From Escherichia phage BEK2: a stretch of 46,880 bases of DNA. Positions 3,169-46,569 of this stretch are shown here, in pieces (within the stretch, counting starts at the first letter, position 1; every line of letters begins with the position of its first letter). The stretch lies in the sequence record MN158206.1; one strand, 5' to 3'. The notes under the pieces are model-generated. The model was given only the letters and a program-made list of their open reading frames with translations, had not been told where the DNA came from and made no database searches. A program made the translations under genes and the position numbers.

Positions 3169-4437
3169 ATGGTTAAGACAGACAGCTACGCCAATATATT
3201 TCTCGGCGGCAGTGATGGTAGTGAGATTTACGGGAGCTTACAGAATCAGGAACCTACAATTCTGGGTTCGCTTTATGCAAATAATGCCATAGTGCGTAGA
3301 ATTATCGACACAATCCCTGAGACAGCATTAGCGGCAGGATTCCACATTGATGGCATTGATGATGAGCCTGCCTTCTGGTCACGCTGGGATGATCTAGAAA
3401 TGACGCAGAATATTAACGATGCTTGGTCTTGGGCTAGATTATTCGGTGGAGCCGCTATTGTCGCTATCGTTAAGGACAATAGGGCGCTAACAAGTCCTGT
3501 CAGAGAAGGTGCCGAACTTGAAACTGTTAGAGTTTACGACCGCACACAAGTAAAAGTACAAACTCGCGAGGAGAATCCCCGTAACGCACGTTTTGGTAAG
3601 CCACTAACCTATCGCATTACCACAAATGAGAGCGATATGTTCTATGATGTGCATTACAGCAGAATTCACATCATTGACGGAGAGCGAATTCCTAACGTAA
3701 TGCGTCGGCAAAATGACGGCTGGGGCCGCAGCGTTCTATCCAGTGACATTCTTGACTCAATCAAGGATTACACCAACTGCGAACGACTGGCTACGCAACT
3801 ACTGAGAAGAAAGCAGCAAGCAGTGTGGAAAGCCAAAGGTCTGGCTGAGTTGTGTGATGATAGCGAGGGATTTGGTGCCGCAAGGTTGCGCCTAGCACAG
3901 GTTGATAATAATAGCGGAGTTGGTCAGGCGATTGGGATTGATGCAGAATCTGAAGAGTATAGCGTTCTAAACTCTGACATTGGCGGGATTGATGCGTTTC
4001 TGGATAAGAAGTTTGACAGAATCGTTGCTCTGAGCGGTATTCATGAAATTATCCTCAAGAACAAAAACGTTGGCGGCGTGTCATCAAGTCAAAACACTGC
4101 ACTTGAGACATTCCACAAGCTAATTGACCGCAAGCGTAACTCTGAGCTGCTTCCTGTTCTTGAGTTCTTAATTCCGTTCATCGTTAACGTTGACGAATGG
4201 TCGGTTGAGTTTAACCCCTTAGCTCAGGAATCAAGCAAGGACAAAGCGGAGATTCTGGAGAGGAACGTAAACAGCATCGCGACGCTAATTGCATCTGGCG
4301 CTATGGATATTGATGAGGCGAGAGATACATTGCGTACAATCGCTCCAGAGGTTAAGATTAGTGACGGTTCAGTAGAGACAGAGGTGACAATTAGTGAAAC
4401 CAGTAACGACCCGCTGGAAGTATCCGCAGACAATTGA
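3169..4437 (+). CDS. portal protein
   Basis: ATG 3169 after terminator (track start 3142 lies in the hairpin); ~420 aa, follows terL, precedes Mu-F-like head protein. Confidence 0.8.
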   Translation: MVKTDSYANIFLGGSDGSEIYGSLQNQEPTILGSLYANNAIVRRIIDTIPETALAAGFHIDGIDDEPAFWSRWDDLEMTQNINDAWSWARLFGGAAIVAIVKDNRALTSPVREGAELETVRVYDRTQVKVQTREENPRNARFGKPLTYRITTNESDMFYDVHYSRIHIIDGERIPNVMRRQNDGWGRSVLSSDILDSIKDYTNCERLATQLLRRKQQAVWKAKGLAELCDDSEGFGAARLRLAQVDNNSGVGQAIGIDAESEEYSVLNSDIGGIDAFLDKKFDRIVALSGIHEIILKNKNVGGVSSSQNTALETFHKLIDRKRNSELLPVLEFLIPFIVNVDEWSVEFNPLAQESSKDKAEILERNVNSIATLIASGAMDIDEARDTLRTIAPEVKISDGSVETEVTISETSNDPLEVSADN

Positions 4438-10497: not shown

Positions 10498-10502
10498 TTG
10501 CA

Positions 10503-10545
10503 TAGCACTTTTTGCTAAAGCACTTATCCAATCTTCCTGTATAGT
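10503..10545 (+). promoter_or_regulatory. composite early-type promoter (TAGCACTTTTTGCTA + -10 TATAGT)
   Basis: box 10503-10517, -10 10540-10545, leader 'ctcATCGAAACGAAA'. Confidence 0.6.
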
Positions 10546-10578
10546 TAACTCATCGAAACGAAATGAAGGAATTAAGAA

Positions 10579-10827
10579 ATGAATAACGTTAAAAACATTA
10601 TCAAACTTACTGCGGTTCTGGTTGCTTTTTATGCGGTGGTTCAGATTGTTAACCCAACGGGTGAGGCTGATGCAAATAGCAAGGCAAACAAATATACCGT
10701 TGAGTTTGCCAAAGCCGAGCGAGCATGCCAGGAACTTGTAGGTGGTAAGGTTGATCAAATCATGAAGTATGGTAGTGAGATTTGCAAGGATACCGCCGCT
10801 AAGATTGCAAAAGAAAACACTAAGTAA
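10579..10827 (+). CDS. small secreted/membrane-anchored protein (cargo gene inside tail operon)
   Basis: N-terminal hydrophobic segment 'LTAVLVAFYAVVQIV' then soluble domain with 2 Cys; own promoter. Confidence 0.6.
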   Translation: MNNVKNIIKLTAVLVAFYAVVQIVNPTGEADANSKANKYTVEFAKAERACQELVGGKVDQIMKYGSEICKDTAAKIAKENTK

Positions 10828-20513: not shown

Positions 20514-21458
20514 TTAATACATGTCAGGAAGGTAAGGAAGTGGTGTTGATATTGTTACGTCAGGCCTATTCCCTATCTCGTATCTGACAATCCTTGAACC
20601 GGTTCCTGAGCGAACATAACCATTGCTCATCACGATTCCTTTGTTTCTCAACTCCTTATATGCTGGTATTGCCCTTGTGTTAAATCCACATCTAAGTATT
20701 GGGAAGTAAGAGTCACCAATGTACTGGTTGCTACCTGATAGGTTTATGAATCCAGAAACAACCAATGGCCTTGTGACGGTTGATAAAGTGCAGGCACCAT
20801 TTGAGTTAAATATGTTAAGTCCCGGACCAGGGGTTGGTGCTACCATCTGAAAAATAATCAAGTCCATAGTGACACTTCCTGGGGTATCACCAGTATCTTC
20901 AGTATTTATGTTTGTACATATTAACTGATTGCTCCCATTGTACTCAACTGACACACCGGAGTTGCTCCACTTTCCAAATGGAATTCCATAAATTGGCAGC
21001 GTGTAAGTGTCGGTGAAAGATATACTCTGAGCAAACTTGCACACCAACAACCTGTCAGTGGTGGTTATCGAAGTAAAATCAGTACTATTCGCAACATAAA
21101 TACCCTGGCCAGCCGATGCTCTTAGTACCTCAACAACAGTGCCAGAAAATTGCGTTATACGGTCAGAGTATCCATTCTCGTAACCAATTGATATTGTTCC
21201 GCTTGATTCTGTTGATGAAAATCCATTTATGTAGTAAATCTCAACTCCCCTATCAAGTTCGAATGAGTAGGCGCCATTGTTAGGGATAAGGAACCTTGAC
21301 GCTCCTTCATTGCCCTGAATTGAAAATGTCTTACTAAACCCGCCGCTAGAAACGTTGAAATTGCCAGCGAAATTCAATGCCCGCATCCCTGCGGTAATTG
21401 TCATTGGCTTCCTTCCATCATTGAGGTCTATATAAATACCTTGAGCCATTAATTCCAC
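20514..21458 (-). CDS. putative receptor-binding / tail-tip accessory protein
   Basis: 314 aa Gly/Ser/Thr/Asn-rich beta-type protein co-transcribed downstream of lipoprotein gene, adjacent and convergent to J; functional call is inference. Confidence 0.4.
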
Positions 21459-21679
21459 TCCTTAGAGCCATAATCACTAACAGATCCACCGGAGCCTTTA
21501 ATACCAGCGTAGCGAATATCAACCTCACCAGCAGGAACAACTACACCACCTTTCCACTTAGACACGCACACGCCGTTTGCTTGCGTTGCACACCAACCAT
21601 CCGGGCGAGGACCAGAAGAACAACCAACTGCCATGATTACTGCTGCTGCGATGATTGCTGATTTGATGAAGTTATTCAT
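21449..21679 (-). CDS. lipoprotein, Cor/Llp-like superinfection-exclusion candidate
   Basis: signal peptide + lipobox '[10 protein letters not shown]|SS'; ATG 21679 with AAGGAA RBS; small mature domain with 3 Cys. Confidence 0.65.
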
Positions 21680-21714
21680 TTTGTATTCCTTAGTAATTTC
21701 GTTTCGATGGAGTA

Positions 21715-21757
21715 ATAGTATCGCATCCTTGCGATCAGTGTTTAGCAATTAGTGCTA
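21715..21757 (-). promoter_or_regulatory. composite early-type promoter (box + -10 TACTAT)
   Basis: box 21743-21757 (minus sense TAGCACTAATTGCTA), -10 at 21715-21720, leader 'ctccATCGAAACGAAAT'. Confidence 0.55.
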
Positions 21758-22431
21758 TTCGCCAAAAATACAGCTCTTGCAAATCCACGAGGTGTAAGAC
21801 TGCGAATTACCTTTGTTTTCTTGCTCTTCCCGCCTAGCTTCTTGTGCTGGTCTGAGTATCCATCATTAACGTCAACTGGTGAGGCTTGAGGCCATTTAAA
21901 CCCATTGCCAGACCAAATGCACGTCTTCTTAGGATATGCGTCTCTTGGCTTTATTAGGTCGCTAAAAAACGGGTGTAAATCATCTTCCGGCAAATAGCCT
22001 CCGTATTCGTAAGGGTGAAACGTGTTATCAGGTTTACTCCAGAGCGATGACAGCACGCTGACTGGGTTCTCAATCATGTATGGAACTCCGTATTTTTCAG
22101 CCAGTTTAAAAGCAACCTTGCAAGTCTCTGCCGCCTCAATTTGGAAGTTTTGGTTGGCTAGGCGCTTACGCTCAAAGTGTGCTGCCCCGCTCACGGCTAA
22201 ATCCGTACAGGGCGGGAATGCCATGATAAAATCAGGCTTCACATCAAAATCAAAACTGGAATCTATCCAGGCATTAACGTATGTAATGTTCTCATGCTCA
22301 ACCTTTGCATTTAAGTCACTGTAGCTCCCGTGGTCGGAATCATCAAAGTTGAAGCAGCAGCATGTGTGGCCAGCTTCAGCCCAATCATTTACAGCCAAAC
22401 CAGAACCATCAAATAAAGACCAGATAACCAT
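21742..22431 (-). CDS. DNA methyltransferase (FxGxG / PPC / ENP motifs)
   Basis: 'LFDGSGLA', '[12 protein letters not shown]', 'MIENPV'; class (C5 vs N6) uncertain; C-terminus 'NSTNC' encoded by TAGCAC box. Confidence 0.55.
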
Positions 22432-23295: not shown

Positions 23296-23780
23296 TTTAT
23301 CGCCAATTTCACCACAAATCACAGTTACACGTAACCGATGTAACTCGATGTATACAATCTCATTCGCGGAAAATGATATACGCGCCGTTACGCAAATTTA
23401 CGCAATAGTTACATTAAAATATCTATATATATCAACCTTTTACTATTATTATTATTATATATATTACTGTGTATATCATGTAACTACTGTTCTGGAGTGT
23501 TCCGGTTATAATTTTAATATCATGTGGATTTATACAGTATTGTGTGGCAGCCATACCAATGCACCCCCCGCAAGAAACGGTATACACGATATACACGATG
23601 GTTACATTGAGCTATATCTGGGCTGAGATGCCATTTTACGTAACAAGTTGCAATGCCTACACGGAATTACAAGTATTCACGCGTAAGTTTAAATCAACGA
23701 TTGGCAAAACCAATTGGACTGGCTACGGTACCGAATATATAGTTACCTCATCGAAAGCAAGCAACCAGAGAGATACAGAA
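23296..23780. repeat. divergent control region A: iterons + AT-rich microsatellite tract (candidate origin/operator region)
   Basis: GTTAC-AC-GTAAC inverted repeat 23324-23335, TTACGCAA x2 (23386-23404), tandem TATACACGA x2 (23581-23598), (TA)n/(TTA)n tract 23415-23490, shared block 23604-23646. Confidence 0.5.
23714..23743 (+). promoter_or_regulatory. rightward sigma70-like promoter of region A
   Basis: TTGGAC ... TATAGT (23738-23743) followed by leader 'cctcATCGAAAGCAAGCA'. Confidence 0.45.
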
Positions 23781-23975
23781 ATGACCTACTACATTATCAA
23801 AGAGAAAAACAACGCACTGTTCGGCGATTGCTACTTTGGAGGCGAGGCCGGTTACACCACCGATAAGAATGAGGCAGACCGATTCGATACCAAAGAAGAA
23901 GCCAGGGATGTGCTGACTGGTTACTTCACTGAAGAAGATTTGAAGTCTGTTAAAGTAGTTAAGGTCAAGGGGTGA
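23781..23975 (+). CDS. hypothetical protein
   Basis: 64 aa ORF (internal start of track ORF 23544) directly after promoter/leader. Confidence 0.45.
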   Translation: MTYYIIKEKNNALFGDCYFGGEAGYTTDKNEADRFDTKEEARDVLTGYFTEEDLKSVKVVKVKG

Positions 23976-23978
23976 GTT

Positions 23979-29116: not shown

Positions 29117-29140
29117 CGTGTAAAGTCTCCTTTTGTAAAA

Positions 29141-29155
29141 TAGCACGAATTGCTA
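29141..29155 (+). promoter_or_regulatory. orphan TAGCACGAATTGCTA box (no phased -10 for adjacent gene)
   Basis: perfect box between primase terminator and tail-fiber start codon, antisense to both. Confidence 0.4.
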
Positions 29156-29180
29156 AGTTGGATTGTAGCATCTTTCGGGT

Positions 29181-29202
29181 ATAAAAAACCTCCCGAAGGA
29201 GG
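29181..29202 (-). terminator. intrinsic terminator after primase gene
   Basis: minus sense cctcc-ttcg-ggagg + T6. Confidence 0.65.
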
Positions 29203-30126
29203 TTAGCTATTCAATAAGTCACTTGCCTTATATATCTTCTTCCTGATGCCGCTCTTGAATGAGTATTCATCATTTGGTATTACCACGTCAATACACCTGT
29301 CATCCGCAACGCAAAGCAACTCTCTGTCAAGTTTGCACGCCACTCTCAGCTTTTGGTTTCTAAGCGCGTAAGCAACCATTTCCATGTTGTAACTGGAGTA
29401 GCAAACAAGCACACAGCGGTTGCCAGTAGCAATGTGAACACGATAGCCGTCAATGAGATTATCGACCAGATAAGCGAACTCACCATCCTTAAGGGAACCA
29501 ATAACAGCCACAGACTGGCGAGTGTAATCTTTTGCGGCATAACTAACATCTCCTTCTTCATTGATAAACATTACATTGCACATTTCTTCTGATATACCAT
29601 CACCATAAGCCATGAAGCAAGGTATTGCATGGATTAATTCACCTGATTTTGCTCTACCAACATCAAAGCCAAACTCGCTATAGATTCCCTCGTATATACT
29701 GAGTGGGGTTGATTCTACTCTTTCCGTCCTTCCCATTATCTCTAAGCATCTTTCGTGGTCAATTTGAGCGCCCATTTTGTAGAGCTGGGTTCTTGATGCT
29801 TGCTTGTTTGCCTTGTTGACAACCTCAACCGGGATAAGGTTTAGCCACTCACCGAGAACGTCGATACACTCACTGAATGACTCGCCTCGCAGCTTCTGGA
29901 CCCAGAGAATTCCATCCCCTGAGCCGCACTGGTTGCAGATAATGCCACCATCACCATCTTCGCTAACCTTGTTTGTCCATCTCGCGCGATCGTTTCCACC
30001 GCAATAGATGCATGGCTTGTGCTTCTTGGTCTGGAAAAACTTAGGATCTGCGCCGCAGATGTTTATAAGCGCCTTATCCCACAGTCCGCGCATTCTTGGT
30101 AGAACCTCTTTCTTATCGTAGTGCAT
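29203..30126 (-). CDS. DNA primase (zinc-ribbon + catalytic domain)
   Basis: 'PCIYCGGNDRARW...GGIICNQCGSGDGI' matches primase Zn-ribbon pattern. Confidence 0.65.
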   Translation of the reverse strand: MHYDKKEVLPRMRGLWDKALINICGADPKFFQTKKHKPCIYCGGNDRARWTNKVSEDGDGGIICNQCGSGDGILWVQKLRGESFSECIDVLGEWLNLIPVEVVNKANKQASRTQLYKMGAQIDHERCLEIMGRTERVESTPLSIYEGIYSEFGFDVGRAKSGELIHAIPCFMAYGDGISEEMCNVMFINEEGDVSYAAKDYTRQSVAVIGSLKDGEFAYLVDNLIDGYRVHIATGNRCVLVCYSSYNMEMVAYALRNQKLRVACKLDRELLCVADDRCIDVVIPNDEYSFKSGIRKKIYKASDLLNS

Positions 30127-33028: not shown

Positions 33029-33444
33029 AAATTACAGACAAAGTTGACTACATTGAGTTTTACCATGGCCCGGTTAAGTCTTGCCCGAAAGAGGATGACG
33101 AGCAAATCTTTTGCTCTGATTGGGTTAAGTATAACTATCCAGAGATGGTATTTTTCCACTGCGTGAATGAGGGTAAGAAAACCATTGGTCAGGCAAGAAA
33201 AGACCAGGCCAAGGGGCTTCTCAAAGGCGTATCAGACTGTATGTTTCTTATTCCCGAATCTATCCGAGGAAAGTACCCTTTCGGAGCCATAGAGCTAAAG
33301 AGGGCTGGGAAGACGCAGGCTAGTCCGGTCAGCGACGAGCAGAAGTCATTCCTTAAAAGCGTAAGAGAATCAGGAGGTTTTGCCGGGGTAGCCTACGGTC
33401 GCGAGGGTTTTCTAGCGGCGTTTAAAGAAATGATTTCAAAATAG
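33025..33444 (+). CDS. VRR-NUC domain nuclease
   Basis: 'DCMFLIPES...GAIELKR' D..E.K core; coupled to helicase (ATGA overlap). Confidence 0.65.
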   Translation: MKITDKVDYIEFYHGPVKSCPKEDDEQIFCSDWVKYNYPEMVFFHCVNEGKKTIGQARKDQAKGLLKGVSDCMFLIPESIRGKYPFGAIELKRAGKTQASPVSDEQKSFLKSVRESGGFAGVAYGREGFLAAFKEMISK

Positions 33445-33484
33445 CACGAATTGCTAAAGACGTTTCGTTGAGTTGGTGTATTAT
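33442..33484 (+). promoter_or_regulatory. composite early-type promoter (TAGCACGAATTGCTA + -10 TATTAT)
   Basis: box 33442-33456, -10 33479-33484, leader 'ttcATCGAAACGAAACG'. Confidence 0.6.
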
Positions 33485-33522
33485 CTATTCATCGAAACGA
33501 AACGCACAAAGAGAGAAAGAAA

Positions 33523-33723
33523 ATGGCTACTATCTTTACTGGTAAAATCTACGAATCACGCAAAACTGGTTATGAATATGAGTTGGTTATCACAGAAGAT
33601 GGTTACATACTTACTGATACTGATGATATGTCTTACGCATTCGAAGTTAGCCCGACTTACAAAGATGACCTGGAAACTGTTAAAAACGCATTTGGCGAAA
33701 AATTTGATGAGGTATTCGAATAA
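33523..33723 (+). CDS. hypothetical protein
   Basis: 66 aa acidic ORF after promoter. Confidence 0.5.
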   Translation: MATIFTGKIYESRKTGYEYELVITEDGYILTDTDDMSYAFEVSPTYKDDLETVKNAFGEKFDEVFE

Positions 33724-35781: not shown

Positions 35782-35782
35782 A

Positions 35783-35825
35783 TAGCACTTTTTGCCTAAA
35801 GCATGCCGTAGAAATGCGGCATAAT
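35783..35825 (+). promoter_or_regulatory. composite promoter variant (TAGCACTTTTTGCCTA + -10 CATAAT)
   Basis: box 35783-35798, -10 35820-35825, spacer inverted repeat atgccg/cggcat. Confidence 0.5.
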
Positions 35826-35866
35826 TACCACATCTAAACGAGATGAACTAAACGAGGAAACACAAA

Positions 35867-39539: not shown

Positions 39540-39893
39540 TTACAGGTATTGCGCCTCAAAATGGTACGTCTGGCAAAGAGTGTAAAATCCAACATCCTCG
39601 CTGCGGTAAAGCTGCCAAGCATTACCATCCTCATCGTAAATGTAACCGGCATTTTGCCCTATCCCGGCATGCATAGATACCTGGTAGCGCTTTCCTTCTT
39701 TAAAGTCTTTTTTAACTCCTGACTTGTGGTTAACCTTTGTGCAGTAAAGCGTCTTAGTCTTGACGTACTTACCGCGCTCTTCGAGGTTAACCCATTTGCC
39801 ATCTTTCTTAATCTGCTCCACACCATCTTTAACGCGAGCTTTGTAGAGTACGTTTTCGTTGCTGATCCAGCTTTTAGTAATCGTAGTGGTCAT
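39540..39893 (-). CDS. hypothetical protein
   Basis: 117 aa ORF with own promoter. Confidence 0.5.
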   Translation of the reverse strand: MTTTITKSWISNENVLYKARVKDGVEQIKKDGKWVNLEERGKYVKTKTLYCTKVNHKSGVKKDFKEGKRYQVSMHAGIGQNAGYIYDEDGNAWQLYRSEDVGFYTLCQTYHFEAQYL

Positions 39894-39929
39894 TTTGTTT
39901 TCCTTTTCGTGTTTCGTTTCGATGAGATT

Positions 39930-39972
39930 AATATACAGGAAAAGCCCCGAAGGGCTTTAGCAATTAGTGCTA
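39930..39972 (-). promoter_or_regulatory. composite early-type promoter with embedded terminator hairpin
   Basis: box 39958-39972, hairpin aagccc-ttcg-gggctttt in spacer, -10 TATATT 39930-39935, leader 'tctcATCGAAACGAAAC'. Confidence 0.55.
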
Positions 39973-40208
39973 TTTATTTCCTTGAGTCCAAGTGGCGTTA
40001 TCACTACCTTATACCAAGTTCCAATCTCTGGCTTATTTACATTATATGCCAGCTCTACATAACCTAGCCGAAATAGTTTTGGTATACCTCTGGATGACTT
40101 GCCACAATCACGAATCCTGCCGCGATTAAGGTCATAGCTTATTTGATGAATCTCTCCATTATGAATACAGTGGAGGGTTTTTATTGCGGATTCAGAAATT
40201 TTAATCAC
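39957..40208 (-). CDS. hypothetical protein
   Basis: 83 aa, GTG start; C-terminus 'NSTNC' encoded by the box. Confidence 0.45.
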   Translation of the reverse strand: MIKISESAIKTLHCIHNGEIHQISYDLNRGRIRDCGKSSRGIPKLFRLGYVELAYNVNKPEIGTWYKVVITPLGLKEINSTNC

Positions 40209-41262: not shown

Positions 41263-41300
41263 TTTTATCTCCGGTGTGTTCGTTTCGTTTCGATGAAGTA

Positions 41301-41343
41301 ACTATACGCCATCCGTGGCGGTGAGTTTTAGCAATTCGTGCTA
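41301..41343 (-). promoter_or_regulatory. composite early-type promoter (box + -10 TATAGT)
   Basis: box 41329-41343, -10 41301-41306, leader 'cttcATCGAAACGAAACG', spacer inverted repeat cgcca/tggcg. Confidence 0.6.
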
Positions 41344-41633
41344 TTGCGTTCGATGTATGCATTAATTTCTTCAGCAGTTTCCATTGCGGAGCGGAAAGCG
41401 CCTTTTGCGTGGCGAGAATCTCGGAATGACTGGAAAAATTTACGAGCAACGTTTGCGAACATCGCGCCAGTGATACGAGAATCACCGAAATTAGTTTCGA
41501 TTGAGTTACTGATGCCATCACGGAACTCATTCTCAGCCATGAACATCTCAGCCATTTCTGCGGTGGCGAAAAGGTCTGCCAGTGCTTGCATGTTTTCGTG
41601 GTCAGCTTTAGTGAAAAGGTTCATGTTAATCAT
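41328..41633 (-). CDS. hypothetical protein (first gene of leftward early operon)
   Basis: 101 aa; C-terminus 'NSTNC' encoded by box. Confidence 0.5.
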   Translation of the reverse strand: MINMNLFTKADHENMQALADLFATAEMAEMFMAENEFRDGISNSIETNFGDSRITGAMFANVARKFFQSFRDSRHAKGAFRSAMETAEEINAYIERNSTNC

Positions 41634-41670
41634 TTTTGTGTCTCCGTGAGTTCTTCGTTTCGATGGAGTA

Positions 41671-41714
41671 ATAATAGCGAATCACACCCGATCGGTCATT
41701 AGCAAAAAGTGCTA
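41671..41714 (-). promoter_or_regulatory. composite early-type promoter (box TAGCACTTTTTGCTA + -10 TATTAT)
   Basis: box 41700-41714, -10 41671-41676, leader 'ctccATCGAAACGAAGAA'. Confidence 0.55.
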
Positions 41715-42300
41715 TTCGTTAGATTTATGGATTGTTGCAGATATTGCAATGATTCACATAATTATTGCACATACAGCAATATTGCTTCAGATGCAATGAT
41801 GTTTTTGATTGTTGCGAAAAGTGAAATGAAGTGGGGAGTGAGCGAATGAAAGATGGATGGACTACCATACAAGTTGATTTTGATTCTGGCTGGGCCATTT
41901 TCACGCCTACACGTAACGCCAGTAGCGCGATGTAAGCCAAGGCCAATCGTTACGTGAGTTACGCGCAGCTACGCCCGGACTTACACTATAAGTGCTTAAT
42001 ATATATATATATCTTCTTTCTATTATTATTATTAATATTAATATTATTGTATGTAAGTCGTGTAACGTGGGTCCTAGCGATATCTATATGTTTTTTCCTA
42101 TCAGAATACATTATTGCTATTTTATGTGGGATTTAGCCAGTATGGGGCCATTGCACTCATTTGCCTCGTTACACGCACGACACGAAACTACATTGAGCTA
42201 TAGCTGGGCTGGTGTGCCATTTCGCGTAACGACCCCCAAAAGTTACCAAAAATTACACTTGACTACATGTGTAAGTCGGGATATGATGGACTCAACTTAA
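41715..42300. repeat. divergent control region B: ATTGCA iteron array, GTTACG repeats, AT-rich tract, two copies of the shared block (candidate origin)
   Basis: (A/G)TTGC(A/T) about 7 copies 41730-41815; block copies about 41887-41920 and 42190-42232; (TA)n/(TTA)n tract 41995-42055. Confidence 0.5.
42259..42287 (+). promoter_or_regulatory. strong sigma70 promoter (rightward early)
   Basis: -35 TTGACT, 17-bp spacer, -10 TATGAT. Confidence 0.65.
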
Positions 42301-42318
42301 ACGAGAGGAGTGATAGAG

Positions 42319-42798
42319 ATGAACGAGAAGGTAACATTAGGCCAAGTGATTCGTGAGATGGTAAAGGCGGCGCTTAAGTCTGAGGATAAGCAGATCAGCG
42401 TGACACTCAACAAGATTGAGAGCCTTATTGGCGCAGAGGAGGGTGGTCTACATAAGCTTAAGAGCTCATACATCTATAATACAACGGCTCGCATGCCTGA
42501 GTTGAGAGATGCCGGACTGAAGGCGACCCACCATTATGATGAGGATGAGGGTGATAGTGAGTTTGGTGAAACCACTCTGGCTGGGGAAAAGAAGTTAGTT
42601 ATCAAGCTGATTCCTGGAGCTGCAAACATTGGAATCAGGAAGAAGACCAACGACGCGATCAAGGATGAGGCAATCAATGGGTTCAAGGCCAAGATTTCGA
42701 AGGTGATGCCAGACCTCTCTGAGTATGAGGGTGAAGCGCTTGCAGCCGCCATGAAGGCCATTAAGGATTACCGTTTAATTATTGAGGAGATTAAGTAA
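42319..42798 (+). CDS. hypothetical protein (first rightward early gene)
   Basis: ATG 42319 with GAGGAG RBS (track GTG 42310). Confidence 0.55.
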   Translation: MNEKVTLGQVIREMVKAALKSEDKQISVTLNKIESLIGAEEGGLHKLKSSYIYNTTARMPELRDAGLKATHHYDEDEGDSEFGETTLAGEKKLVIKLIPGAANIGIRKKTNDAIKDEAINGFKAKISKVMPDLSEYEGEALAAAMKAIKDYRLIIEEIK

Positions 42799-44149: not shown

Positions 44150-44150
44150 A

Positions 44151-44193
44151 TAGCACTTTTTGCCTAACCCTCTTCGGAGGGTTTTGTTATAGT
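44151..44193 (+). promoter_or_regulatory. composite promoter variant with embedded terminator (TAGCACTTTTTGCCTA, hairpin, -10 TGtTATAGT)
   Basis: box 44151-44166, hairpin ccctc-ttcg-gaggg + T4 (44167-44186), -10 44188-44193, leader 'tcccATCGAAAGCAAAC'. Confidence 0.55.
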
Positions 44194-44231
44194 TATCCCA
44201 TCGAAAGCAAACAACCAAACGGAGCTACAAA

Positions 44232-44324
44232 ATGATTTCTTTACTGATGATTATCCCTGCTGTTATCGCCCTGGGTCTGATGGTTAGTGCTGGTGAGTTC
44301 TACGTCCCAGTCAACAAGAAATAG
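44232..44324 (+). CDS. hypothetical small hydrophobic peptide (30 aa)
   Basis: 'MISLLMIIPAVIALGLMVSAG...' single TM; own promoter; stop in next box. Confidence 0.3.
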   Translation: MISLLMIIPAVIALGLMVSAGEFYVPVNKK

Positions 44325-44392: not shown

Positions 44393-44485
44393 GTGAAGCA
44401 ATACCCATCAAGCAATCACCATAACGGTCACATCATGCAGTTCTATCGCCACAATCTGAAGACTAATGGAGTATTTGGAAAATGA
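44393..44485 (+). CDS. hypothetical small protein (30 aa)
   Basis: GTG with GAGAGGAAAGAG RBS; ATGA overlap with next gene. Confidence 0.3.
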
Positions 44486-44721: not shown

Positions 44722-44855
44722 TTTACATCCACACGTACTACACTGGTAAGTTTAATAGCGTTAAGCATGCTCGAGTTCACGATAGCTACGATAGTGCAAA
44801 GGCTCAATGGTTGGTTCTTGGTGGTGATATTAATTCATATAGAGTCGCTGAATAG
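44718..44855 (+). CDS. hypothetical small protein (45 aa)
   Basis: ATGA overlap upstream; stop TAG inside box. Confidence 0.35.
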   Translation: MIYIHTYYTGKFNSVKHARVHDSYDSAKAQWLVLGGDINSYRVAE

Positions 44856-44895
44856 CACTAATTGCTAAAACAGTATTGGGGTAATTTGTTATAGT
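44853..44895 (+). promoter_or_regulatory. composite early-type promoter (TAGCACTAATTGCTA + -10 TGtTATAGT)
   Basis: box 44853-44867, -10 44890-44895, leader 'ccccATCGAAACGAACGAGG'. Confidence 0.6.
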
Positions 44896-44925
44896 TACCC
44901 CATCGAAACGAACGAGGAAGCAGAA

Positions 44926-46492: not shown

Positions 46493-46569
46493 GCTCGAGT
46501 GGCGAAAGTGGATATCGCAAGAGACTTCTAATCTCTAGATTGCTGGTTCGAATCCAGCCTCGGGCGCCA
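46493..46569 (+). tRNA. tRNA-Arg (anticodon UCU)
   Basis: hand-folded cloverleaf: acceptor GCTCGAG/CTCGGGC (one G-U), D-stem GCGA/TCGC with GG in loop, anticodon stem AGAGA/TCTCT, loop CT-TCT-AA, T-arm GCTGG-TTCGAAT-CCAGC, discriminator G, encoded CCA. Confidence 0.8.

What the first reader, a model, noticed from the sequence alone, without database searches (positions are those of the whole stretch)
10540..10565. Conserved initial transcribed sequence ATCGAAACGAAAC downstream of the composite promoters
After the -10 most copies share 'TA-CyyC-ATCGAAACGAAA(c/t)', for example at 10546-10563, 21697-21714 (minus), 33487-33500, 39912-39929 (minus), 41283-41300 (minus), 41653-41670 (minus), 44196-44212 and 44898-44912; the region A promoter (23744-23760) has it too. 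The A of ATCG sits where +1 is expected, so early transcripts would share a 5' leader. That suggests RNA-level recognition (stability, processing or translational control) or an extended discriminator constraint.
Basis: seen in the sequence. Interest (0 to 1): 0.55.

Follow-up and report, generated by a model that had tools for sequence, protein, structure and literature searches.

The report
Shared transcript start of phage promoters
The 13 bases ATCGAAACGAAAC sit where transcription should begin in about ten promoters of this T1-like coliphage, and they occupy the same position in early promoters of unrelated phages (T4-like, lambda-like, Felix-O1-like), so they belong to a widely shared, mobile promoter cassette rather than being a quirk of this genome.

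Summary
The window is Escherichia phage BEK3 (Drexlerviridae, T1/Rtp-like). ATCGAAACGAAA occurs 7 times with at most 1 mismatch, against 0.34 expected. Each copy lies exactly 6 nt after a -10 hexamer, 24-35 nt before a start codon, and downstream of the known T1-family repeat ATAGCAC-N3-TTGCTAA. In orthologous promoters of seven related phages the spacer and discriminator are only about 50% identical, while +1..+11 is 100% identical.

The main new result is that the same 14-mer, in the same register to a -10, occurs in RB49 PeSL cassettes (whose promoter function was confirmed experimentally on two PeSLs), KP15-type and Vibrio T4-like phages, the annotated pL of phi80 and HK639, Ounavirinae, Wifcevirus and cyanophage-like contigs. 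In an unbiased scan of viral contigs, 81 of 120 occurrences have TANNNT exactly at -12..-7.

It is best read as the initial transcribed segment of a PeSL-like mobile early promoter/5'-UTR cassette. It fixes an A start after C. It gives a nearly U-free initial transcript with no -10-like hexamer. It opens an unstructured A-rich leader. It also serves as one of two homology blocks for cassette shuffling.

Recognition of the RNA by a phage-specific factor is unlikely. No 5'-end mapping exists for these phages, so the mechanism is inferred.

The parts
10552..10564 (+). Initial transcribed sequence (ITS) copy ATCGAAACGAAAT. The predicted +1 is 10552. The 5'UTR is 27 nt and leads to the ATG at 10579 of an 82-aa protein with a hydrophobic N-terminus.
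10540..10545 (+). -10 hexamer TATAGT of the focal promoter, followed by the G-less discriminator TAACTC (10546-10551).
10502..10518 (+). Upstream repeat ATAGCACTTTTTGCTAA at -50..-34. This is the T1-family 21-nt intergenic repeat. The palindrome TAGCA-N5-TGCTA is centred near -42.
   Evidence: repeat described for TLS, T1 and Rtp in PMC11447400
21696..21708 (-). ITS copy ATCGAAACGAAAT with +1 at 21708. -10 TACTAT at 21715-21720; repeat at 21742-21758. It precedes the homologue of the Rtp45-type lipoprotein gene (21449-21679).
33491..33503 (+). ITS copy ATCGAAACGAAAC. -10 TATTAT at 33479-33484; repeat at 33441-33457. The 5'UTR is 32 nt with no U after +2.
39911..39923 (-). ITS copy ATCGAAACGAAAC with +1 at 39923. 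-10 TATATT at 39930-39935. A terminator-like hairpin lies in the spacer. Repeat at 39957-39973.
41282..41294 (-). ITS copy ATCGAAACGAAAC with +1 at 41294. -10 TATAGT at 41301-41306; repeat at 41328-41344.
41652..41664 (-). ITS copy ATCGAAACGAAGA with +1 at 41664. -10 TATTAT at 41671-41676. The repeat starts at 41715 on the minus strand.
44200..44212 (+). ITS variant ATCGAAAGCAAAC. -10 TATAGT at 44188-44193; repeat at 44150-44166. It precedes an unannotated 30-aa hydrophobic ORF starting at 44232.
44902..44914 (+). ITS variant ATCGAAACGAACG that runs directly into the Shine-Dalgarno site. -10 TATAGT at 44890-44895. The hairpin GGGGTA...TACCCC encloses the -10. Repeat at 44852-44868.
23750..23762 (+). 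ITS variant ATCGAAAGCAAGC behind -10 TATAGT (23738-23743). It has no ATAGCAC repeat. A different palindrome, ATTGG-N5-CCAAT (23700-23714, within ATTGGCAAAACCAATTG at 23700-23716), occupies the equivalent upstream position.
35832..35844 (+). Degenerate ITS ATCTAAACGAGAT (2 mismatches). -10 CATAAT at 35820-35825; repeat at 35782-35798.

Best explanation
ATCGAAACGAAAC is the initial transcribed segment (+1 to +13) of a modular early promoter/5'-UTR cassette read by the host sigma70 RNA polymerase. The cassette is of the same kind as the PeSL ('promoter-early stem-loop') cassettes of T4-like phage RB49, and in part homologous to them.

Cassette layout in BEK3:
- an upstream AT-centred repeat (ATAGCAC-N3-TTGCTAA, -50..-34);
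- a variable 21-nt spacer that often holds a GC stem-loop;
- a -10 hexamer;
- a G-less discriminator ending in C;
- the ITS;
- a short, A-rich, U-poor, unstructured leader with a Shine-Dalgarno site and ATG.

Shown here: the anatomy, the fixed register, purifying selection on +1..+11, occurrence across phage families in the same register, and shuffling of cassettes relative to genes.

Inferred mechanism:
1. C(-1)/A(+1)/U(+2) fixes a single efficient start site.
2. The ITS holds its only U at +2, and the transcript stays U-free for at least the first 12-13 nt, about the length made before promoter escape. It contains no -10-like TAnnnT. This should favour fast promoter clearance without sigma-dependent pausing, as in the related T7 A1 and A3 starts.
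3. Where a gene follows, the same bases are the 5' tail of an unstructured leader that should favour ribosome loading.
4. The ITS and the upstream repeat are the two invariant blocks flanking a variable core. They act as homology patches for recombination, which swaps promoter cores and genes within and between phages.
For: Identity of the window: BEK3, Drexlerviridae; no RNA polymerase gene is annotated.

Anatomy and register:
- The -10 sits at a fixed offset of 38 from the start of the repeat in BEK3, Rtp, T1 and TLS.
- In a logo of 127 non-redundant T1-family promoters the consensus of +1..+12 is ATCGAAACGAAA, with A at +1 in 85%.

Selection:
- In one orthologous promoter from 7 distinct phages, identity is 0.97 for the repeat, 0.49 for the spacer, 0.81 for the -10, 0.52 for the discriminator and 1.00 for +1..+11.

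Occurrence across families, same register:
- RB49 PeSLs: TAAGATactcccATCGAAACGAAACAAAGGAG.
- KP15, where the site is annotated 'putative middle promoter; discovered using MEME'.
- phi80 pL, with annotated -35, -10 and CI operators.
- HK639 putative pL.
- Vibrio D482, Salmonella SE5 (Ounavirinae), TH32 (Wifcevirus) and Pectobacterium POP18.
- Cyanophage-like contigs.
- 1074 phage records match a 35-nt probe covering the -10, ITS and start of the leader.
- In an unbiased scan for the 14-mer, 81 of 120 occurrences have TANNNT exactly at -12..-7, against about 2-3 expected.

Experimental background on PeSLs (PMC2839356):
- Promoter function was confirmed with whole-PeSL lacZ fusions of two PeSLs (193/192 and 206/205). 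The one wild-type clone, PeSL206/205, gave about 13,000 Miller units; nearly all other clones carried point mutations in the -35 or -10. I did not check whether these two PeSLs carry the ITS.

Shuffling in T1-like phages:
- 23 promoter core types lie upstream of more than one unrelated gene.
- 11 of 42 gene clusters are preceded by more than one core type.
- The cassette is present or absent at orthologous sites.

Leader properties:
- Composition is A 51% and U 13.5%.
- MFE per nt is -0.037, against -0.145 for random genome windows (p = 1e-8).
- The ITS is unpaired in every fold.

Related mapped starts: T7 A1 begins ATCGAGAGGG and T7 A3 begins ATGAAACGACAG at their annotated start sites.
Against: - No 5'-end mapping exists for BEK3 or any T1-like phage, so +1 is inferred from geometry.
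- The T1-like cassettes have no -35 hexamer at 17 bp. TTGCTA lies 22 bp from the -10. They may therefore need an activator or alpha-CTD contacts, and may not be 'early' in the strict sense.
- About half of the cassettes work, presumably, with degenerate ITS variants. The exact sequence is therefore not essential for promoter function.
- No experiment separates the ITS from the rest of a PeSL.
- RNA polymerase is not known to read +3..+13 sequence-specifically. The escape argument rests on general knowledge of ITS effects (T5 N25, T7 A1), not on a test of this sequence.
- Exact identity could be maintained partly by recombination rather than by selection on expression.
Confidence: 0.6

Rival explanations
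1. The conservation is mainly at the RNA level and serves translation. On this reading the ITS is an unstructured A/C-rich 5' tail that acts as a ribosome standby or S1-binding site and raises translation of the first gene. Its effect on transcription would be secondary.
For: - Leaders are 24-35 nt, 51% A and almost structure-free.
- The motif occurs only at promoter-proximal genes, not at internal ribosome-binding sites: ACGAG is found upstream of 7 of 71 genes, mostly promoter-proximal ones.
- T1-like, T4-like, Ounavirinae and Wifcevirus copies share the whole leader design, ITS + ACAGAnAAAGGAA + ATG.
- In cyanophage-like contigs the ITS makes up nearly all of an 18-20-nt leader with no Shine-Dalgarno site.
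- Unstructured 5' tails are known to promote ribosome standby (general knowledge, not tested here).
Against: - In phi80 and HK639 pL the same ITS is followed by a long nut/put leader and no nearby start codon.
- The register to the -10 is fixed to the nucleotide. A standby site would not need that.
- There is no complementarity to 16S rRNA beyond chance: the longest match is 6 nt and shuffles average 6.07 nt.
- Composition alone would not keep C3, G4, C8 and G9.
Confidence: 0.3
2. The ITS has no role of its own in expression. It is kept identical because it is a homology patch for recombination, through gene conversion or cassette exchange. It hitch-hikes with mobile promoter cassettes that spread between co-infecting phages.
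For: - The spacers of orthologous promoters look swapped rather than point-mutated. The same cores recur upstream of unrelated genes.
- Crossovers of RB49 mini-circles were mapped between the -10 and the ATG (PMC2839356).
- Similarity across families extends beyond the ITS. The discriminator TACTCC is shared by BEK3 and phi80 pL. The GGGGTA/TACCCC stems are shared. The ATAGCAC repeat also occurs in KP15-like phages.
- Alternative ITS alleles are also shared across families: ATACCAAA (T1 and RB49) and ATCAACCA (T1-like phages and cyanophage-like contigs).
Against: - 11-13 bp is very short for homologous exchange to maintain by itself.
- The block always has the same register and orientation to the -10 and always starts with A after C.
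- It persists in lineages as distant as Vibrio and cyanophage-like T4 relatives, where exchange with coliphages is implausible.
- Neutral hitch-hiking does not explain the U depletion of the leader.
Confidence: 0.15
3. The ITS is a specific binding site for a protein. One form is an operator at +1..+13 for a phage repressor that shuts off these promoters. The other is a 5' RNA tag read by a phage or host RNA-binding protein or nuclease to mark phage transcripts.
For: - Conservation of non-A positions (C3, G4, C8, G9) is sharp.
- There is a tandem CGAAA-CGAAA repeat.
- About ten promoters would be co-regulated.
- T1-like phages encode HTH proteins of unknown target.
Against: - The same sequence is used by phage families that share no obvious regulator, including temperate lambdoid pL promoters that already have CI operators.
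- The sequence has no dyad symmetry. A 5-bp direct-repeat period does not suit known dimeric DNA binders.
- There is no RNA structure, covariation or Rfam family.
- Degenerate variants grade continuously into the consensus instead of forming an on/off class.
Confidence: 0.07
4. The ITS is a promoter-proximal pause or antiterminator-loading element of the lambda PR' type.
For: It occurs at lambdoid pL promoters upstream of nut/put sites.
Against: Sigma70-dependent pausing needs a -10-like hexamer (TAnnnT) in the initial transcribed region. The ITS has a single T, at +2, and cannot form one (direct reading of the sequence). The T1-like copies are followed at once by a ribosome-binding site.
Confidence: 0.02

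Closest known systems
PeSL (promoter-early stem-loop) regulatory cassettes of T4-like phages RB49 and phi1 (Arbiol et al. 2010, PMC2839356)
   Same: - Many intergenic copies lie upstream of small ORFs.
- Each has an AT-rich upstream part, a sigma70-type -10, and a GC stem-loop at variable positions, including one that encloses the -10 (GGGG...CCCC).
- Each has a short leader with a Shine-Dalgarno site.
- Cassettes are shuffled relative to genes.
- RB49 PeSLs carry the identical ATCGAAACGAAAC, 6 nt after the -10.
   Different: - BEK3 cassettes have no -35 hexamer at 17 bp. The ATAGCAC-N3-TTGCTAA repeat occupies -50..-34 instead.
- The host genome is a 47-kb siphovirus, not a T4-like myovirus.
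- The conserved start sequence is not discussed in the text of the PeSL paper that I could search. Its figures are not held.
21-nt intergenic direct repeat aaATAGCACnnnTTGnTAAAA of TLS, T1, Rtp and Rogue1 (German et al. 2024, PMC11447400)
   Same: This is the upstream half of the same composite. It has the same orientation and lies about 76 nt before start codons. Its function is stated there to be an open question.
   Different: That paper describes only the repeat. The fixed -10 at 21 nt downstream and the conserved +1..+13 are not mentioned. The paper reports only three sigma70-like promoters in TLS.
Initial transcribed sequences of strong coliphage early promoters: T7 A1 and A3 (checked here), T5 N25 'downstream region' (from memory)
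   Same: - The start is A after C, 6-7 nt from the -10.
- T7 A1 begins ATCGAGAGGG and T7 A3 begins ATGAAACGACAG, with no U for many bases after +2.
- Initial transcribed sequences of such promoters are known to set abortive/productive ratios and escape rates (general knowledge: Kammerer et al. 1986; Hsu and co-workers).
   Different: Those sequences are single promoters, not a repeated motif shared across families. The similarity is partial: 8 of 13 positions for A1, and 10 of 13 with one gap for A3. No escape measurement exists for ATCGAAACGAAAC.
pL promoters of lambdoid phages phi80 and HK639
   Same: They have the identical -1..+13 (CATCGAAACGAAAC) 6 nt after the annotated -10. The phi80 discriminator TACTCC is identical to that of two BEK3 copies.
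   Different: They are flanked by CI operators of many immunity types and are followed by a conserved nut/put leader, not by a gene. They have a canonical -35 and no ATAGCAC repeat.
Sigma70-dependent pause element of lambda PR' (initial transcribed -10-like sequence)
   Same: It is a functional sequence element located in the first ~15 transcribed bases of a phage promoter.
   Different: It requires a -10-like hexamer, which the nearly T-free ITS cannot provide. The logic is the opposite: pausing versus clearance.

Membership tests
PeSL-type mobile promoter cassette | Sigma70-like promoter with both -35 and -10 boxes | tested here: inconclusive
   A -10 of TAnnnT type is present at a fixed position in all copies. 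No -35-like hexamer lies at 16-18 bp; TTGCTA is 22 bp away. A scan for canonical -35/-10 pairs does not pick up these sites. RB49, KP15, SE5 and TH32 copies do have TTGACA-like -35 boxes.
PeSL-type mobile promoter cassette | Stem-loop at variable position within or next to the promoter (between the boxes, overlapping the -10, before the start site) | tested here: met
   GC hairpins with T-runs lie in the spacers of the copies whose repeats start at 39973 and 44150. The discriminator is complementary to its own spacer in 26 of 108 non-redundant T1-family promoters, against 6.2 +/- 2.3 with permuted spacers. An example is GGGGTAatttgtTATAGTTACCCC at 44874-44901.
PeSL-type mobile promoter cassette | Many copies per genome, intergenic, immediately upstream of (mostly small, unknown) ORFs, with a Shine-Dalgarno site | tested here: met
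   There are 23 repeat hits in BEK3, about 19 of them with a -10. 5'UTRs are 22-40 nt and lead to ORFs.
PeSL-type mobile promoter cassette | Mediates modular shuffling of flanking genes | tested here: met
   This is comparative evidence only. 23 core types lie upstream of more than one unrelated gene. 11 of 42 gene clusters have more than one core type. The cassette is present or absent at the orthologous gene 39540-39893. Mini-circles and crossovers were not testable here.
PeSL-type mobile promoter cassette | Demonstrated strong promoter and terminator activity | not testable with these tools
   Shown only for RB49/phi1 PeSLs. Promoter function was confirmed with PeSL193/192 and PeSL206/205 (about 13,000 Miller units for the one wild-type clone; nearly all other clones carried -35/-10 mutations). 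Terminator function was shown with the PeSL211/210 stem-loop (PMC2839356).
PeSL-type mobile promoter cassette | Sequence relatedness to RB49 PeSLs | tested here: met
   RB49 has TAAGATactcccATCGAAACGAAACAAAGGAG and TAATATacccccATCGAAACGAAATAC, against BEK3 TATAGTtaccccATCGAAACGAACGAGG. The alternative start ATACCAAA is shared by T1 and RB49.
Sigma70-dependent promoter-proximal pause element (lambda PR' type) | -10-like hexamer (TAnnnT / A at position 2 and T at position 6) within the initial transcribed region | tested here: not met
   The ITS has a single T, at +2. Several leaders have no further T before the AUG.
Structured cis-regulatory RNA leader (riboswitch, attenuator or other Rfam family) | Conserved secondary structure or a match to a curated family | tested here: not met
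   The only Rfam hit at gathering threshold in the window is a tRNA. Leader MFEs are -1.2 to -5.5 kcal/mol and no better than shuffles, with the ITS unpaired. The phi80 pL leader has z = 0.08.
Translational enhancer acting by base-pairing with 16S rRNA | Complementarity to 16S rRNA beyond chance | tested here: not met
   The longest complementary run to E. coli rrsB is 6 nt. Shuffled ITS sequences average 6.07 nt, with a maximum of 9.
UP element (alpha-CTD site), considered for the upstream repeat that accompanies the ITS | A/T-rich tract centred near -42 (proximal) and/or -52 (distal) that binds alpha-CTD | not tested
   This rests on position only. The centre of the repeat is at about -42 in T1-like phages and about -53 in KP15-like phages. 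Binding was not testable here. The comparison with the UP consensus was made from memory.

The most novel reading that the evidence does not exclude
ATCGAAACGAAAC, together with its A/C-rich alleles such as ATCAACCA and ATACCAAA, would be a discrete, portable downstream core-promoter element or 5' leader. Machinery conserved from enterobacteria to cyanobacteria would read it sequence-specifically: most plausibly RNA polymerase during initial transcription, or else a factor that binds 5' ends. Many unrelated phages would have acquired or retained it to give their first transcripts privileged initiation, escape or use. That would make it an unrecognised promoter element, not merely an A-rich leader.
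Probability: 0.2. Interest if true: 0.8.

Novelty: new variant of a known kind. Interest (0 to 1): 0.6.

Why it matters
Three points make this useful.

1. It gives a concrete reading of a question the T1-family literature states as open, the function of the 21-nt intergenic repeat. The repeat is the upstream block of about 20 promoters per genome, each with a fixed -10 and a conserved start. This explains why conventional -35/-10 searches find almost no promoters in these phages.

2. It links the T1-like composites to the PeSL cassettes of T4-like phages. One promoter/leader design, down to an identical 13-14 nt at the start site, is shared by siphoviruses, several myovirus groups and lambdoid pL promoters. 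This points to exchange of regulatory cassettes across phage families, or to a common optimum for host RNA polymerase.

3. It supplies a short, portable sequence for direct tests of how the initial transcribed region controls start-site choice, promoter escape and leader function. It is also a candidate part for strong synthetic promoters.

Tried and rejected
- Chance occurrence: rejected by shuffles.
- Part of the general ribosome-binding context of this phage: rejected. ACGAG occurs upstream of only 7 of 71 genes, mostly promoter-proximal ones.
- Pairing with 16S rRNA: rejected.
- Structured leader or known RNA family: rejected. The Rfam hits near the lambdoid pL leader were weak chance hits.
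- The ITS as the 3' arm of the stem-loop that encloses the -10: only the discriminator is clearly complementary to the spacer. For -1..+3 and +1..+6 the excess is about 2 sd. For +5..+13 there is none.
- TTGCTA as a true -35: rejected on spacing, 22 bp.
- HK022 as the source of the lambdoid class: the motif is absent from the 7 kb I fetched, which missed the immunity region. phi80 and HK639 settled the point instead.
- S-PM2 as a cyanophage example: no enrichment there. Only some metagenomic cyanophage-like contigs carry the motif.
- Protection of the 5' end as the main role: judged unlikely. The 5' end is a long single-stranded tail, which by general knowledge favours 5'-end-dependent decay by RppH and RNase E.
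- Literature: no paper in the searchable library contains ATCGAAACGAAA. I found no TSS mapping of T1-like phages. The Rtp genome paper could not be read. An 'ATAGCAC' text search returned only primer noise.
Full report
**What the window is.** The window is essentially Escherichia phage BEK3 (MN158207.1; 100% identity over the 5-kb probe). BEK3 is a T1/Rtp-like siphovirus of Drexlerviridae, subfamily Braunvirinae. No RNA polymerase or sigma factor is annotated. The window is 4 nt shorter than the record, and the first base difference is at 3252.

**The observation.**
- ATCGAAACGAAA occurs 5 times exactly and twice with one mismatch. Dinucleotide shuffles give 0.34 +/- 0.52, and none of 100 reaches 7. 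With up to 2 mismatches there are 15 matches against 5.5 expected.
- Each copy has the same anatomy: a -10 hexamer (TATAGT, TATTAT, TATATT or TACTAT), a 6-nt G-less discriminator ending in C, then the A of ATCG. A Shine-Dalgarno site and a start codon follow 24-35 nt later.
- Upstream at a fixed distance lies ATAGCAC-N3-TTGCTAA. The repeat begins 38 nt before the -10, that is, at -50..-34.
- BEK3 has 23 hits to this repeat. About 19 have a -10 at the fixed offset and a downstream ORF.
- Only about half of those carry the sharp motif. The rest have related A/C-rich starts: ATCAACAACGGA, ACACAAACGAGA, ATCAACCACGCG, ATATAAACTAAG.
- The promoter at 23738-23762 has the -10, discriminator and ITS but a different upstream palindrome.

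**What was already known.**
- The 2024 re-annotation of phage TLS describes the upstream element as a 21-nt direct repeat, aaATAGCACnnnTTGnTAAAA. It has 18 intergenic copies, lies about 76 nt before start codons, and is also present in T1, Rtp and Rogue1.
- That paper finds only three sigma70-like promoters. It lists the function of the repeat among open questions, suggesting a stoperator, an enhancer site or a UP element (PMC11447400).
- It does not mention the -10 or the conserved start.
- No paper in the searchable library contains ATCGAAACGAAA. I found no transcription-start mapping for any T1-like phage.

**Conservation within the T1 family.**
- In Rtp, T1 and TLS the -10 sits at the same offset from the repeat.
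- From 330 promoter instances in BEK3, Rtp, T1, TLS and 28 related contigs I kept 127 representatives that differ at more than 8 of 37 positions.
- In these, A at +1 is present in 85%, T at +2 in 61%, and A at +5 to +7 in 70-75%. The consensus of +1..+12 is ATCGAAACGAAA.
- The motif is therefore the family consensus. It is sharp in Braunvirinae and looser in T1 and TLS.
- Selection shows in the promoter of the gene at 33523. In seven distinct phages mean pairwise identity is 0.97 for the repeat, 0.49 for the spacer, 0.81 for the -10 and 0.52 for the discriminator. It is 1.00 for +1..+11, with 0 of 11 columns variable.

**The same start in unrelated phages.**
- I scanned viral contigs for TANNNT-N5-CATCGAAACGAAA. 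The scan hit its 120-locus limit, and only 13 of 125 matches had the T1-type repeat within the upstream window I searched. That window missed repeat copies lying further upstream in T4-like contigs, found later.
- A second scan for the bare 14-mer CATCGAAACGAAAC did not require a -10. Of its 120 stretches, 81 have TANNNT exactly at -12..-7, against 2-3 expected from base composition. By my reading, nearly 20 more have lambdoid-type -10s such as GATTAT or TTTAAT. About 20 look random.
- These stretches are not independent events: 92 matches belong to one lambdoid class.
- I identified representatives against annotated genomes:
  - phi80 pL, with annotated -35, -10 and CI operators, reads TTTAATtactccATCGAAACGAAACATCGACAGC... 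and runs into nutL boxA.
  - HK639 'putative pL' reads TATCTTtaatccATCGAAACGAAAC, upstream of the putL-like RNA.
  - RB49 reads GTTGACA-N17-TAAGATactcccATCGAAACGAAACAAAGGAGAATCAAAATG, with two more copies within 800 bp.
  - KP15 has two copies, one directly downstream of a feature annotated 'putative middle promoter; discovered using MEME'.
  - Vibrio phage D482 (253 kb), Salmonella phage SE5 (Ounavirinae), E. coli phage TH32 (Wifcevirus) and Pectobacterium phage POP18 also carry it.
  - Metagenomic contigs related to T4-like cyanophages carry tandem TGTAGACT-N6-ATCGAAACGAAACG cassettes. S-PM2 itself is not enriched.
- A 35-nt probe covering the -10, ITS and start of the leader matches 1074 phage records: Klebsiella 488, Escherichia 260, Vibrio 97 and others.
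- The phi80-type pL leader is present in 126 of 5426 complete E. coli genomes, including DH5alpha and DH10B.

**Similarity extends beyond the ITS.**
- The phi80 discriminator TACTCC equals that of two BEK3 copies.
- The stem GGGGTA...TACCCC that encloses the -10 recurs in RB49 as GGGGGTAgTAAGATACTCCC.
- The alternative start ATACCAAA is shared by T1 and RB49. ATCAACCA is shared by T1-like phages and the cyanophage-like contigs.
- KP15-type phages carry the T1-family repeat itself (AAATAGCACTTTTTGTTAAAG). There it lies 11 bp further upstream, in front of a proper -35.

**Relation to PeSLs.**
- Arbiol et al. (PMC2839356) described about 100 'promoter-early stem-loop' cassettes in RB49 and phi1.
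- Each has an AT-rich region, a sigma70 promoter and a stem-loop. The stem-loop lies between the boxes, over the -10, or just before the start. A Shine-Dalgarno site follows.
- Promoter function was confirmed with two whole PeSLs (193/192 and 206/205). Nearly all clones carried -35 or -10 point mutations, and the one wild-type clone (PeSL206/205) gave about 13,000 Miller units. I did not check whether these two PeSLs carry the ITS.
- The PeSL211/210 stem-loop terminates transcription.
- PeSLs recombine with each other to shuffle ORFs. [quoted passage not shown]
- The BEK3 composites show the same traits:
  - Stem-loops occur at variable positions. The discriminator is complementary to its own spacer in 26 of 108 promoters, against 6.2 +/- 2.3 with permuted spacers.
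  - Cores are shuffled. 23 core types lie upstream of more than one unrelated gene, 11 of 42 gene clusters are preceded by more than one core type, and the cassette is present or absent at orthologous sites.
- The difference is that T1-like cassettes lack a -35 at 17 bp. TTGCTA lies 22 bp from the -10.

**What the ITS does not do.**
- It is not part of the general ribosome-binding context.
- It is not complementary to 16S rRNA beyond chance.
- It matches no Rfam family.
- It is unpaired in every predicted fold. The leaders are among the least structured sequences in the genome: MFE per nt is -0.037 against -0.145, p = 1e-8, with A 51% and U 13.5%.
- It is not the 3' arm of the stem-loop. Positions +5..+13 show no excess complementarity to the spacer, and +1..+6 only about 2 sd.
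- It cannot act as a sigma70 pause signal, because it has no -10-like hexamer.

**Most likely mechanism (inferred).**
- Register: the A lies where sigma70 holoenzyme normally starts and follows a pyrimidine. T7 A1 (ATCGAGAGGG) and T7 A3 (ATGAAACGACAG) have partly the same start at their annotated start sites.
- Extent: the invariant stretch ends at about +11 to +13. This is roughly the RNA length at which polymerase leaves the promoter.
- Composition: the stretch is purine-rich, has no U after +2 and offers no sigma re-binding site.
- Only initiation-level functions are common to all the contexts found, namely Shine-Dalgarno-containing leaders, leaders without a Shine-Dalgarno site, and nut/put leaders.
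- I therefore read the ITS as the downstream part of the core promoter. It would fix a unique start and favour fast clearance.
- Where a gene follows, it doubles as the 5' tail of an unstructured leader that should help ribosome loading.
- A 5'-stability role is less likely. A long single-stranded 5' end favours 5'-end-dependent decay, although the scarcity of U removes typical RNase E sites (general knowledge).
- Independently of expression, the ITS and the upstream repeat are the two invariant blocks around a hypervariable 33-nt core. This is the arrangement expected for recombination joints, and it matches the PeSL crossover data.

**Limits.**
- No start site has been mapped in any T1-like phage.
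- The lack of a -35 leaves open whether these promoters need alpha-CTD contacts or a phage activator, and therefore whether they are truly early.
- Degenerate ITS variants show that the exact sequence is dispensable for promoter function.
- No experiment isolates the contribution of the ITS.
- The counts across families include many related sequences.

**Verdict.** Recognition of the RNA by a factor specific to this phage is unlikely. The element is best filed as a new, T1-family variant of the PeSL kind of mobile early-promoter cassette. The conserved +1..+13 is a feature shared across phage families and, as far as I could search, not previously described.

Noticed in passing
L095 (repeat ending 7 nt before the TTGCCT -35; promoter of the ORF listed at position 1913, minus strand), L097 = KP15 (listed at 2006, minus strand), L107 (listed at 913, minus strand); compare window 10502-10518: The T1-family repeat (AAATAGCACTTTTTGTTAAAG) also occurs in KP15-type T4-like phages. 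There it spans about -61..-45, one helical turn (11 bp) further upstream than in T1-like phages (-50..-34), and sits in front of a normal -35. The repeat centres, at about -53 and -42, match the distal and proximal UP-element subsites. This bears on the open question of what the repeat does.
   Followed up: partly
window 23700-23716 and 23544-23975: In the promoter at 23738-23762 the place of the ATAGCAC repeat is taken by a different palindrome of the same 5-N5-5 layout, ATTGG-CAAAA-CCAAT. The CDS annotated in the record (23562-23978 in record coordinates) runs through this promoter. The real start is probably the ATG at 23781, giving 64 aa.
   Followed up: partly
window 46493-46569 (+): A tRNA-Arg (anticodon TCT) is found by ARAGORN and by Rfam (63 bits). 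It is not among the 72 features annotated in MN158207.1.
   Followed up: yes
window 44232-44324 and 44393-44485 (+): Two unannotated 30-aa ORFs lie directly behind composite promoters. One is a hydrophobic peptide, MISLLMIIPAVIALGLMVSAGEFYVPVNKK. The other, [14 protein letters not shown]..., has its opening residues (KQYPS) matching the start of Rtp gene rtp6, which is annotated as similar to T4 Stp.
   Followed up: partly
T1 (L002) repeat starts 3535 and 47117; TLS (L003) repeat start 5136; contigs L015, L019, L023, L026 and L032: In the core type AAGGCCatttgaTATAGTGGCCTT the stem extends into the transcript start with a compensatory change: CTTCcgcAAGGCC...GGCCTTattGAAG versus CTTGcgcAAGGCC...GGCCTTattCAAG. 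This core type carries a different ITS allele (ATTGAAGC or ATTCAAGA).
   Followed up: partly
window 29140-29210 (+); Rtp (L004) 33762; T1 (L002) 34902: One repeat copie, with a weak -10, points against the flanking minus-strand genes (tail fibre and primase). It runs straight into a GC hairpin (cctcccgaaggagg). The arrangement is conserved in Rtp and T1. It may be an antisense promoter or a bidirectional terminator module.
   Followed up: no
window 41700-42320: A 600-bp gene-free divergent region holds an (AT)n/(ATT)n microsatellite at about 42000-42050. One of the few canonical sigma70 promoters in the genome lies here: TTGACT-17-TATGAT, with the -35 at 42259. It is a candidate for a truly early, activator-independent promoter.
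   Followed up: no
window 33458-33478: In BEK3 only, the spacer of the 33491 promoter contains GTTTCGTT, the exact complement of ITS bases AACGAAAC. Orthologues carry unrelated spacers, so this is probably chance.
   Followed up: partly
L034-L194 (lambdoid class), L155 3286-3352, L196 308-374: Lambdoid pL promoters of many immunity types have different operator repeats abutting the -35 and -10. They share the ITS plus a conserved ~50-nt leader in two alternative versions (catcgacagctgagcgaagttagccagcggcgg... and catcgatgcggcagacaggaactactcgccgcgcc...), upstream of nutL or putL. The leader matches no Rfam family, and its fold is no better than shuffles.
   Followed up: partly
spacers directly upstream of the -10 in window promoters with repeat starts 41344, 45556, 2649 and 21758; Rtp (L004) repeat starts 38478, 4027 and 44966: A recurring spacer subclass, sCCAnGGATGGs (for example CGCCACGGATGGCG), forms a short hairpin abutting the -10. 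Its GATG can pair with CATC at -1..+3. The excess of such pairing over permuted controls is only about 2 sd.
   Followed up: partly
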